Source: Candidatus Iainarchaeum sp.
GTDB taxonomy: Archaea; Iainarchaeota; Iainarchaeia; Iainarchaeales; CSSED10-239
NCBI GenBank assembly: GCA_003559395.1
Contig: PWLL01000077.1
Span: 12,225 to 44,224, forward strand
Direction: 5' to 3'
DNA: 32,000 bases
The notes beneath the pieces were generated by a model. That model was not told the origin of the DNA. It saw nothing but the letters and a program-made list of their open reading frames with translations, and made no database searches. This document shows, one piece after another, positions 20,642 through 20,892 of this stretch (position 1 is its first letter; every line of letters starts with the position of its first letter). The translations under genes were made by a program, and so were the position numbers.

Positions 20642-20892
20642 CTTGGGAAGTGATTTCTAAGAGCAATTAGTTGATTAGAGAGTTGAAAAAAATGGAAACA
20701 AAACAACAGCAGTTATTTAAGAGAAATACATACACACCCAAAGATGCTTCACAAGTCTTTGGCTCTGTGGTCTTGTCTTTAAACAGAGAGGAAACTCTCA
20801 GTGAGCAAGACTTAAAAACCTTAGATAACAGTCTCGATGTGAACATACAGTCTGGCAAGACTGAACAAAACTTGAGAGTATTTGTTTTAAAC
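20622..20892 (+). ncRNA. Candidate IscB omega-RNA scaffold (extent and guide position undetermined)
   Basis: About 230-270 nt between the left end and the conserved IscB N-terminus. GAGAG-GAAA-CTCTC (20786-20799, GNRA loop). CAGTCT-GGCA-AGACTG (20848-20863). 7-nt complementarity of AAGTCTT (20753-20759) with AAGACTT (20807-20813). Visibly more G+C than the flanks. Confidence 0.5.

What the first reader, a model, noticed from the sequence alone, without database searches (positions are those of the whole stretch)
20642..20892. The apparent N-terminal extension of the IscB ORF is more likely the omega-RNA scaffold
The ORF track starts this gene at TTG 20671, but the conserved IscB N-terminus (RVFVLN.QKKPMMP) begins only at about 20875. 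The ~230 nt between the left-end hairpin and that point are visibly more G+C-rich than the rest of the window. They contain perfect local stems: GAGAG-GAAA-CTCTC (20786-20799, GNRA tetraloop) and CAGTCT-GGCA-AGACTG (20848-20863). They also contain competing long-range complementarity: AAGTCTT 20753-20759 against AAGACTT 20807-20813 or AAGACT 20858-20863, and ACAGTCT repeated at 20828 and 20847. The position and length match where IscB omega-RNAs are encoded, upstream of and abutting the ORF. The guide should sit at the 5' end, near or just outside the left end (about 20600-20625), but I cannot define it.
Basis: partly seen in the sequence, partly recalled or inferred. Interest (0 to 1): 0.7.

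Follow-up and report, generated by a model that had tools for sequence, protein, structure and literature searches.

The report
IscB guide RNA that is also translated
The stretch is the known guide-RNA (omega-RNA/HEARO) scaffold of an IscB transposon nuclease, but comparison with relatives suggests the same bases are also read as the first ~60 codons of the nuclease, an overlap that curators normally trim away as an annotation error.

Summary
The region 20614-20848 matches Rfam HEARO (RF02033, the IscB omega-RNA) at 126.4 bits against a threshold of 83. In 23 relatives, 45 of 64 base pairs show compensatory changes. The pseudoknot and a terminal hairpin (20848-20863) lie beyond the Rfam model and are also supported. 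The scaffold starts at 20614, so the "left-end hairpin" is part of the RNA. By IS200/IS605 convention this is the right end. The guide is probably 20598-20613.

The either/or interpretation is not supported. In the IscB clade holding this window, 36 of 40 distinct loci keep the upstream frame open for 59-84 codons. That frame has no stops, against about 41 expected. All 18 indels inside it are multiples of three. One relative carries a compensated +1/+2 frameshift. An ATG with a Shine-Dalgarno-like motif sits in a peripheral RNA loop in 35 of 36 loci, and 11 of 36 have no other start codon. Substitutions show no codon periodicity, and AlphaFold2 predicts a disordered tail.

The stretch is therefore most likely dual-use: a structured guide RNA read through as an unconstrained N-terminal tail. 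It is a known system with a possibly unreported overlap.

The parts
20614..22098 (+). Whole non-autonomous IscB (IS200/IS605-type) element, about 1485 bp. It sits between two co-directional host genes.
   Evidence: Four relatives in unrelated flanks all begin at GTCAAT (window 20614). Similarity to the 70%-identical relative L181 stops after TCAAACA (22098). The far-end boundary is less certain than the near end.
20598..20613 (+). Inferred guide segment of the omega-RNA (AGGGAGTGAGAGAGCC), encoded by flanking DNA just outside the element.
   Evidence: This follows from the established IscB architecture: the guide is 5'-adjacent to the scaffold and outside the transposon right end (Meers preprint). 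A guide of 16-17 nt is reported by Kato 2022. The boundary comes and the sequence. It has not been measured.
20614..20863 (+). Omega-RNA (HEARO) scaffold: helices H1-H10, a pseudoknot, a linker and terminal hairpin 1.
   Evidence: Rfam RF02033 matches 20614-20848 at 126.4 bits (GA 83), full model 1-211. The RNAalifold consensus of 23 relatives has 64 pairs, 45 with compensatory changes. 94.1% of cells are paired, against 74% when shuffled and 33-44% when slid.
20622..20641 (+). Hairpin H2 (CCCCTCCC-TAAA-GGAAGGGG). It is both an omega-RNA stem and the subterminal hairpin of the transposon right end.
   Evidence: It lies inside Rfam model positions 9-29. 7 of its 8 pairs covary. A look-alike hairpin occurs at the other end, and the motif CCCTAAAGGA occurs exactly only at 20627 and 22067.
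20677..20694 (+). Probable translation start inside the RNA: purine-rich AGAGAG (20677-82) followed by ATG 20692-94. The ATG lies in the variable loop of helix 5; AGAGAG overlaps the 5' strands of helices 4 and 5 (20678-83).
   Evidence: 35 of 36 open-frame relatives have an in-frame ATG 57-68 codons before the PLMP domain. Many have AAGGAG or AAAGG 8-11 nt upstream of it. The loop length varies from 4 to about 60 nt.
20692..20871 (+). 60-codon N-terminal extension of the IscB ORF, lying entirely within the omega-RNA scaffold and its 3' tail (dual-use sequence).
   Evidence: The frame is open in 36 of 40 distinct clade members. It has 0 stops against 40.7 expected from column shuffles, while the other two frames match expectation. 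18 of 18 indels are multiples of 3, against 16 of 55 upstream. One relative has a compensated +1/+2 frameshift. There is no codon periodicity and the synonymous fraction is 0.25. AlphaFold2 pLDDT is below 50.
20738..20762 (+). Helix 7 hairpin (the nexus-pseudoknot hairpin). Its loop bases 20748-20752 (UUCAC) pair with 20839-20843 (GUGAA).
   Evidence: Helix 7 is 98.4% paired and 5 of its 8 pairs covary. The pseudoknot is 91% paired, with CG:13/UA:10 at one pair. The architecture matches the OgeuIscB omega-RNA (Kato 2022).
20839..20843 (+). 3' strand of the pseudoknot (GUGAA).
20848..20863 (+). Terminal hairpin 1 (CAGTCT-GGCA-AGACTG). It lies 3' of the Rfam model.
   Evidence: Four pairs are kept with compensatory changes across 23 relatives. 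Meers et al. note that RF02033 lacks downstream elements.
20872..22107 (+). IscB core ORF, from the PLMP domain to the stop codon. RuvC, the bridge helix (RRXRR) and HNH are intact. The last ~20 codons run through the far-end hairpin, and the stop TGA 22105-07 lies in flanking DNA.
   Evidence: Pfam RRXRR scores 209 bits and HNH 42.8 bits. Solved IscB structures align from query residue 63 to chain residue 4. Catalytic columns are invariant in 69 homologues. AlphaFold2 folds residues 61-451, while 452-471 are disordered.
22052..22091 (+). Nested hairpin of the far (left, by IS convention) end: outer stem GGCAA/TTGCC, inner hairpin CACCACCC-TAAA-GGATGGTG.
   Evidence: The same two-level hairpin, with different stem sequences, is seen in L181, L046, L047, L066, L067, L085 and L068.
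22099..22104 (+). Inferred target-adjacent motif ATAAGA, the first bases of the flank.
   Evidence: It fits the OgeuIscB TAM NWRRNA (quoted in the abstract of PMC12660989). The flanks of L181 (TAAAAA), L046 (ATGAGA) and L047 (AAAACA) also fit. However, the distance from the stem is not constant in other relatives. This is an inference.
20333..20632 (+). Upstream host ORF, in the same orientation. It reads 19 nt into the element and stops at the TAA in the loop of hairpin H2.
   Evidence: The same arrangement occurs in L181. No promoter-like site is found on the + strand between it and the RNA.
22104..22532 (+). Downstream host ORF. Its ATG overlaps the IscB stop codon (ATGA).

Best explanation
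Positions 20614-20863 encode the omega-RNA (HEARO) scaffold of a single-copy, non-autonomous IscB element (20614-22098). The element sits in the junction between two co-directional genes of an AT-rich, virus-like contig. Transcription reading in from the upstream gene would give an RNA with three parts: a 5' guide from flanking DNA (about 20598-20613), the scaffold, and the iscB message.

In this clade of IscB the translation start lies inside the scaffold. It is an ATG (20692) in the variable, protein-free loop of helix 5. Ribosomes would therefore read through helices 6-10, the pseudoknot strand and terminal hairpin 1 before reaching the PLMP domain at 20872. This adds a roughly 60-residue tail that is disordered and unconstrained in sequence.

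The IscB-omega-RNA complex would then cut the empty site (...AGGGAGTGAGAGAGCC|ATAAGA...) and so restore or spread the element, as shown for other IscB elements.

Shown here: the RNA family and its fold, protein family membership with intact catalytic motifs, and evolutionary maintenance of the overlapping frame. Inferred: the guide, the TAM, read-through transcription, actual translation of the tail, and any regulatory consequence of the overlap.
For: RNA evidence:
- RF02033 scores 126.4 bits, E 4.3e-26.
- HEARO lies directly upstream of 37 of the 40 viral relatives scanned.
- 45 of 64 pairs have compensatory changes.
- 94.1% of cells are paired, against 74% shuffled and 33-44% slid.
- The pseudoknot and terminal hairpin covary.
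- Folding z-score is -2.82.

Protein evidence:
- RRXRR 209 bits and HNH 42.8 bits.
- Solved IscBs match at E 1e-36 to 1e-39.

Overlapping-frame evidence:
- Relatives were selected with the core protein only. 36 of 40 distinct clade members keep 59-84 open codons upstream, whereas other clades close within 1-43 codons in all but a few loci (53-66 open codons in L029, L032/L039 and L151) and carry stops in all three frames, apart from rare exceptions such as L151 and L148.
- 0 stops observed against 40.7 +/- 4.3 expected. Frames +1 and +2 give 162 and 159 observed against 157 expected.
- Indels are 18 of 18 multiples of three inside the ORF, against 16 of 55 in the 5' RNA part.
- L182 has a +1 and a +2 indel about 30 nt apart that restore the frame.
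- 35 of 36 have the upstream ATG. Many have AAGGAG-like motifs at -8 to -11. 11 of 36 have no ATG, GTG or TTG near the PLMP start, and none has an ATG there.
- The 120 best database homologues (445-495 aa) are called with the extension.

Ends and insertion site.

Mechanism of IscB elements: Meers et al.; Kato et al..
Against: There is no direct evidence of translation: no proteomics or ribosome profiling.
- Substitutions in the extension show no third-position excess (0.37/0.40/0.35 against 0.37/0.30/0.57 in the core). Only 25% of single-base codon differences are synonymous, against 65% in the core. The peptide sequence itself is therefore not under detectable selection.
- AlphaFold2 gives pLDDT 37-48 and no secondary structure for residues 1-60.
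- Solved, active IscBs start directly at the PLMP domain.
- In the window an in-frame TTG (20872) directly precedes the conserved N-terminus and could serve as an internal start. The window's Shine-Dalgarno-like motif (AGAGAG) is weak, and its ATG is displaced 7 codons from the clade's usual position.
- The 36 loci used in the shuffle and indel tests were the open-frame members (36 of 40), which is a mild selection bias.
- The TAM and the far-end boundary rest on few comparisons, and no empty site was found.
Confidence: 0.72

Rival explanations
1. The stretch is omega-RNA only. The long ORF is a gene-calling artefact, and IscB starts at TTG 20872 (or ATG 20893).
For: The Pfam domain starts at ORF residue 70. 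Solved IscBs start at the PLMP domain. The extension is predicted disordered. It shows no codon periodicity or synonymous excess. An in-frame TTG lies at 20872. Published curation pipelines trim such N-terminal insertions (PMC13180657).
Against: This reading does not explain several results. The frame has zero stops against about 41 expected, while the other two frames match expectation. Indels are exclusively frame-preserving only inside the frame. One relative has a compensated frameshift. The ATG with a Shine-Dalgarno-like motif is conserved, and the start codon has turned over in the window's subgroup. 11 of 36 relatives have no alternative start codon. HEARO regions of other IscB clades carry stops in all three frames.
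Confidence: 0.18
2. Two isoforms. Ribosomes start both at the ATG inside the RNA (long form with tail) and at TTG 20872 (short form). The open upstream frame is kept only so that upstream starts are not wasted.
For: TTG at -2 is present in the window, L046 and L019. The tail is disordered and unconstrained in sequence.
Against: No Shine-Dalgarno-like motif precedes 20872. The TTG is absent from most of the clade, and 11 of 36 have no near start at all.
Confidence: 0.1

Closest known systems
HEARO RNA (Rfam RF02033), the IscB omega-RNA, e.g. that of OgeuIscB
   Same: The covariance model matches over its full length. The RNA lies directly upstream of an RRXRR/HNH ORF. It starts exactly at the element end, with the guide position outside. 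The window RNA has counterparts of the nexus pseudoknot hairpin and stem, the linker and terminal hairpin 1 described for OgeuIscB.
   Different: In the literature read here the RNA is treated as a 5' untranslated region (Goltsman 2022; Meers). In this clade about 170 nt of the scaffold lie inside the conserved reading frame, with the start codon in a peripheral loop. Clade members score lower against RF02033 (84-126 bits) than relatives without the overlap (134-161 bits).
IscB nucleases with solved structures (OgeuIscB, PDB 7xht/7utn/8csz)
   Same: The PLMP domain, RuvC, the Arg-rich bridge helix and HNH are all present. The phmmer E-value is 4e-36. Catalytic columns are invariant.
   Different: The window protein has about 60 extra N-terminal residues and about 20 extra C-terminal residues encoded by the element's terminal structures, both predicted disordered. 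The core is shorter (386-409 aa against 419-458 aa in neighbouring clades). The motif reads PMMP rather than PLMP.
TnpB omega-RNA (reRNA) of IS200/IS605 and IS607 elements
   Same: The guide-RNA scaffold overlaps the coding sequence of its own nuclease and ends at the transposon boundary with the guide outside. Meers et al. describe the TnpB omega-RNA as 'overlapping'.
   Different: In TnpB the overlap is with the 3' end of the ORF and the guide is 3'. Here it is the 5' end of the ORF, includes the translation start, and the guide is 5'. The protein and RNA families are different.
Non-autonomous IS200/IS605 (ISC-type) elements mobilised in trans by TnpA
   Same: Both ends have similar subterminal hairpins. 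There is no target duplication in the reconstruction. The element is inserted in the same orientation as the upstream gene, as reported for IscB elements.
   Different: No tnpA was found among the window ORFs scanned. Nearly the whole element (1416 of 1485 bp plus 9 bp of flank) is one ORF.

Membership tests
HEARO / IscB omega-RNA (Rfam RF02033) | Covariance-model score at or above the curated gathering threshold, over the full model | tested here: met
   126.4 bits against GA 83, model positions 1-211 of 211, E 4.3e-26
HEARO / IscB omega-RNA (Rfam RF02033) | Located directly upstream of, and on the same strand as, an HNH/RRXRR (IscB) ORF | tested here: met
   The model match ends at 20848 and the PLMP domain starts at 20872. 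The same arrangement holds in 37 of the 40 viral relatives scanned.
HEARO / IscB omega-RNA (Rfam RF02033) | Secondary structure, including the pseudoknot, supported by covariation | tested here: met
   45 of 64 pairs are compensatory, with a covariation score of 0.573 against 0.20 shuffled. The pseudoknot is 91% paired with covariation.
HEARO / IscB omega-RNA (Rfam RF02033) | Expressed as a stable RNA with a 5' guide taken from flanking DNA, bound by IscB | not testable with these tools
   This needs small-RNA sequencing, RACE or RIP. No transcript data for this contig were available.
IscB RNA-guided nuclease | Domain set: N-terminal PLMP domain, split RuvC with an Arg-rich bridge helix, and an HNH insert | tested here: met
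   Pfam RRXRR 209.4 bits over the full profile and HNH 42.8 bits. The alignment to OgeuIscB starts at its residue 4. The motif is PMMP in the window and PLMP in relatives.
IscB RNA-guided nuclease | Catalytic residues of RuvC (D, E, H, D) and HNH conserved | tested here: met
   Invariant columns D118, H269, H350 and D353 and nearly invariant E213 in 69 homologues, all present in the window protein
IscB RNA-guided nuclease | Guide- and TAM-dependent double-strand DNA cleavage | not testable with these tools
   This needs a biochemical or plasmid-interference assay.
IS200/IS605-type (ISC) transposable element | Subterminal imperfect hairpins at both ends and sharp boundaries against unrelated flanks | tested here: met
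   Hairpins at 20622-41 and 22062-81 share CCCTAAAGGA. The boundary lies at GTCAAT in four relatives with unrelated flanks.
IS200/IS605-type (ISC) transposable element | Y1 (HUH) transposase TnpA in the element | tested here: not met
   The element holds only the IscB ORF. No Y1 transposase domain was found in the 26 window ORFs scanned. This is the usual state for IscB elements (Meers) and marks the element as non-autonomous.
IS200/IS605-type (ISC) transposable element | Insertion next to a defined target motif (TAM), with an empty site recoverable | tested here: inconclusive
   The flank ATAAGA fits NWRRNA, as do three relatives. However, the spacing varies in others, and no empty site was found.

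The most novel reading that the evidence does not exclude
In this large IscB clade the ribosome-binding site and start codon are built into a peripheral loop of the omega-RNA. Each transcript can then either fold and be bound or trimmed as a guide, or be translated, but not both. IscB binding to its own scaffold would shut off its own translation, giving a built-in autoregulatory switch between making guide and making nuclease. The disordered 60-residue tail would be a tolerated by-product.
Probability: 0.3. Interest if true: 0.6.

Novelty: new variant of a known kind. Interest (0 to 1): 0.42.

Why it matters
The core identification, an omega-RNA in front of IscB, is textbook and adds only one more example.

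What may matter is the overlap. A roughly 170-nt stretch of a highly structured, covarying guide-RNA scaffold appears also to be kept as open reading frame in a widespread clade found in archaea, bacteria and viruses. The translation start lies inside the RNA.

If so, three things follow. Routine trimming of "N-terminal insertions" mis-annotates the native proteins. IscB would share with TnpB the habit of overlapping guide and nuclease genes, but at the opposite end. The arrangement would also offer a simple, testable route to autoregulation. Finally, it is a clean natural case of RNA-structure constraint overriding amino-acid constraint in a translated region.

Tried and rejected
1. Empty site and related genomes. 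Searches of viral contigs with the two flanking proteins found no relatives. An exact search for the reconstructed junction found nothing.
2. Second copy. P0032, a paralogue listed on a contig of the same length (44,224 bp), could not be looked up.
4. A second terminal hairpin (window 20864-20874) is only 61% paired, is absent in the window, and is not claimed.
5. Amino-acid-level selection on the tail was looked for in paired and unpaired RNA columns separately. None was found.
6. A folded N-terminal domain was looked for. AlphaFold2 shows none. The phmmer alignment of residues 31-62 to TbaIscB has almost no identities before the PLMP domain and was judged spurious, apart from a short HQTGG-like resemblance.
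7. Promoter scan. No sigma-70-like site lies on the + strand upstream of the RNA. This is weak evidence because the organism's promoter type is unknown.
8. TAM logo from many relatives. The distance between the end hairpin and the NWRRNA-like motif is not constant, so no logo is claimed.
9. Literature. Altae-Tran 2021 and Weinberg 2009 are not held. Searches for reports of an IscB N-terminal extension or ORF overlap found none.

Full report
**What is in the sequence**

The long ORF 20671-22107 begins at TTG. Pfam places the IscB-specific RRXRR domain from ORF residue 70 (nt 20878) and an HNH domain at residues 262-303. The first 67 residues match nothing. The stretch 20642-20871 has 37.0% G+C against 28.6% for the window, in the top 4% of 230-nt windows. 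RNA 20598-20892 folds at -77.4 kcal/mol, z = -2.82, and none of 200 shuffles folds as well.

**It is the IscB omega-RNA**

A scan of the whole window against Rfam gives a single hit. It is HEARO (RF02033) at 20614-20848 on the + strand, 126.4 bits (gathering score 83), E 4.3e-26, covering the full model. HEARO is the RNA later shown to be the IscB omega-RNA (Goltsman 2022; Meers et al.; 2026 review).

I collected relatives using only the conserved core protein (20872-22104). This gave 45 viral, 80 metagenomic and 53 genomic loci. Of the 40 viral loci scanned with Rfam, 37 carry a HEARO hit ending 18-69 nt before the protein match.

An alignment of 23 omega-RNAs from the window's clade gives an RNAalifold consensus of 64 pairs, 45 of them with compensatory double changes. 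For that structure:
- 94.1% of cells are standard pairs, against 74% after shuffling partners and 33-44% after sliding partners by 1-3 columns.
- The covariation score is 0.573 against 0.20, and 0 of 500 shuffles reach it.

In window coordinates the helices are:
- H1 20614-20 with 20669-75
- H2 20622-29 with 20634-41
- H3 20643-49 with 20654-60
- H4 20678-81 with 20832-35
- H5 20682-83 with 20706-07
- H6 20712-20 with 20821-29
- H7 20738-45 with 20755-62
- H8 20771-79 with 20803-11
- H9-10 20783-90 with 20795-802

Two further elements lie beyond or outside the Rfam annotation:
- A pseudoknot between the H7 loop (20748-52, UUCAC) and 20839-43 (GUGAA). It is 91% paired, with CG:13/UA:10 at one position.
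- Terminal hairpin 1 (20848-53 with 20858-63), which keeps four pairs through compensatory changes.

This matches the published OgeuIscB omega-RNA layout: nexus pseudoknot hairpin and stem, linker and terminal hairpins (Kato 2022). It also matches Meers et al.'s remark that RF02033 lacks downstream elements.

**Ends, guide and target**

The window, L181 (70% identical protein), L046 and L047 sit in unrelated flanks, and all four begin with GTCAAT (window 20614). The RNA therefore starts at the element boundary, and the "left-end hairpin" (H2) is inside it. By IS200/IS605 convention this is the right end, and the guide lies 5'-adjacent, outside the element. With a 16-17-nt guide, that is about 20598-20613, AGGGAGTGAGAGAGCC. 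This is inferred, not measured.

At the other end there is a nested hairpin (22052-22091). Its inner stem-loop shares CCCTAAAGGA with H2, and the exact motif occurs nowhere else in the window. Similarity to L181 stops after TCAAACA (22098).

The next six bases, ATAAGA, fit the OgeuIscB TAM NWRRNA. So do the corresponding flanks of L181, L046 and L047. In other relatives the spacing differs, so the TAM is tentative.

Removing 20614-22098 restores a compact gene junction, ...GAG CCA TAA G ATG.... The upstream ORF ends in TAA, and the downstream ORF's ATG follows one base later, preceded by a purine-rich stretch. As inserted:
- The upstream ORF runs 19 nt into the element and stops at the TAA in the H2 loop.
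- The IscB ORF runs through the far-end hairpin and stops at a TGA in the flank that overlaps the downstream ATG (ATGA, 22104-07).

The upstream gene has the same orientation. No promoter-like site lies between it and the RNA. This is consistent with the read-through transcription proposed for IscB elements. No empty site could be found.

**The extension is not just an artefact**

The frame upstream of the PLMP domain falls into two classes. Clustering 113 distinct core proteins separates the following groups:
- One cluster of 35, with cores of 386-408 aa. 34 of them keep 59-84 open codons upstream.
- The window's immediate subgroup, which sits just outside that cluster. Four members are open and four are closed.
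- Together these make 40 distinct members, 36 of them open.
- Neighbouring clades, with cores of 419-458 aa. The frame usually closes within 1-43 codons (a few reach 53-66: L029, L032/L039, L151). They generally carry stops in all three frames of the 180 nt upstream, with L151 and L148 as the exceptions. They have an ATG directly before (M)VYVLS.

HEARO sequence alone therefore does not keep any frame open.

In the 36 open loci the results are:
- The frame has 0 stops, against 40.7 +/- 4.3 expected when alignment columns are shuffled (minimum 30). Frames +1 and +2 have 162 and 159 stops against 157 expected. This behaviour is the same as in the bona fide core.
- In a plain nucleotide alignment, all 18 distinct gap events inside the frame are multiples of three. 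In the 5' part of the same RNA, upstream of the frame, the counts are 16, 22 and 17 for lengths 0, 1 and 2 modulo 3.
- L182 (annotated "RNA-guided endonuclease IscB") has a +1 insertion in helix 8 and a +2 insertion about 30 nt later. Only the intervening peptide changes (LNREETLS becomes IKHG...) and the frame is restored.
- 35 of 36 have an in-frame ATG 57-68 codons before the PLMP start, in the variable loop of helix 5. It is often preceded at 8-11 nt by AAGGAG, AAAGG or a similar motif.
- The window and its closest relatives lost the usual ATG but have another 7 codons upstream (20692).
- 11 of 36 have no ATG, GTG or TTG within ten codons of the PLMP start, and none has an ATG there.
- In the protein database, the 120 best homologues (49-72% identical, 445-495 aa) are called with the extension. 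They include archaeal and bacterial MAG proteins.

**What kind of constraint acts on the extension**

The extension shows no coding signature in its substitutions.
- Diversity at codon positions 1, 2 and 3 is 0.37, 0.40 and 0.35, against 0.37, 0.30 and 0.57 in the core.
- The flat pattern holds for both paired and unpaired RNA columns.
- Only 25% of single-base codon differences are synonymous, against 65% in the core.
- Amino-acid replacements follow the RNA. For example, K/F-G against T/R-S across the two strands of helix 7.
- AlphaFold2, using 69 homologues, folds residues 61-451 (pLDDT mostly 70-90). It leaves residues 1-60 and 452-471 without secondary structure at pLDDT 27-48.
- Solved IscBs align from query residue 63 to their residue 4.

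The simplest reading is that the frame, the start codon and the ribosome-binding site are maintained, while the peptide sequence is dictated by the RNA. The result is a translated but unconstrained, disordered tail. The roughly 20 C-terminal residues encoded by the far-end hairpin are present in only some relatives and look incidental.

**Comparison with what is known**

The system itself is already known: an IscB element with a HEARO omega-RNA. The literature I could read treats the RNA as a 5' UTR. One large ortholog screen explicitly replaces N-terminal insertions of 10 aa or more by a downstream start (Kannan et al. 2025). Meers et al. accepted HEARO hits "overlapping" the IscB ORF but did not analyse them. 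Searches for reports of the overlap found none. Altae-Tran 2021 and Weinberg 2009 could not be read, so prior mention cannot be excluded. Overlap of guide RNA and nuclease ORF is established for TnpB, but there it is at the 3' end of the ORF.

**Verdict**

- Observation: confirmed.
- Interpretation: partly supported. It is the omega-RNA, but most likely not instead of coding sequence.
- Novelty: a new variant of a known kind.
- Confidence that the region is the omega-RNA scaffold: about 0.97.
- Confidence that the overlapping frame is maintained by selection in the clade: about 0.85.
- Confidence that it is translated in this particular element: about 0.7.

Whether placing the start site inside the RNA creates an autoregulatory switch is an untested idea.

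Noticed in passing
window 22048-22107: The IscB ORF reads through the far-end hairpin of the element and ends at a TGA in flanking DNA. That TGA overlaps the ATG of the next gene (ATGA). In L181 the stop (TAA) is likewise supplied by the first flank bases. 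This could couple translation of the downstream host gene to IscB after the insertion displaced that gene's own ribosome-binding site.
   Followed up: partly
window 20612-20632; L181 1237-1257: In both loci the upstream host ORF runs into the element and stops at the TAA in the loop (C/A)TAAA of the first omega-RNA hairpin. The insertion therefore changes only the last few residues of the host protein.
   Followed up: partly
window 18008-19912: A 634-aa ORF has three matches to the Pfam intein splicing domain. Its only PHROG hits are to helicase, terminase and recombinase families and probably reflect the inteins. It is likely an intein-bearing (possibly double-intein) ATPase of a virus-like genome.
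   Followed up: no
window 3184-4655 (- strand): Two adjacent N6/N4 DNA methylase genes lie next to a DNA helicase (1919-3187) and a family-2 glycosyltransferase (1061-1873). Most large ORFs of the window (724, 536, 464, 1140 and 636 aa) have no PHROG match, and the only one of them also scanned against Pfam (1140 aa) has no match there either.
   Followed up: no
L019 1535-1783 and 2717-2977: Two HEARO copies lie about 1 kb apart on one viral contig, with a tRNA between them. The copy next to IscB is the one clade member lacking an ATG in its otherwise open upstream frame.
   Followed up: no
L037 4663-4791: A skipping-rope RNA (RF02924, 63.6 bits) lies just downstream of an IscB gene on a viral contig.
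   Followed up: no
(viral loci): Omega-RNAs of the clade with the overlapping frame score lower against RF02033 (84-126 bits) than those of relatives without it (134-161 bits). Their IscB cores are also about 40 aa shorter.
   Followed up: partly
P0032: A 61%-identical IscB paralogue is recorded on an NCBI contig of 44,224 bp, the same length as the longest contig carrying the window's own protein. It may be a second element on the same contig, outside the window. The look-up failed.
   Followed up: partly
PDB 9k30 TbaIscB residues ~488-497: TbaIscB has more than 460 residues before its PLMP domain. The residues just upstream (HQTGGSSGSMKVFVVD) resemble the clade's linker (QHTGG.K..VYVL). This may be chance or shared ancestry of N-terminally extended IscBs.
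   Followed up: no
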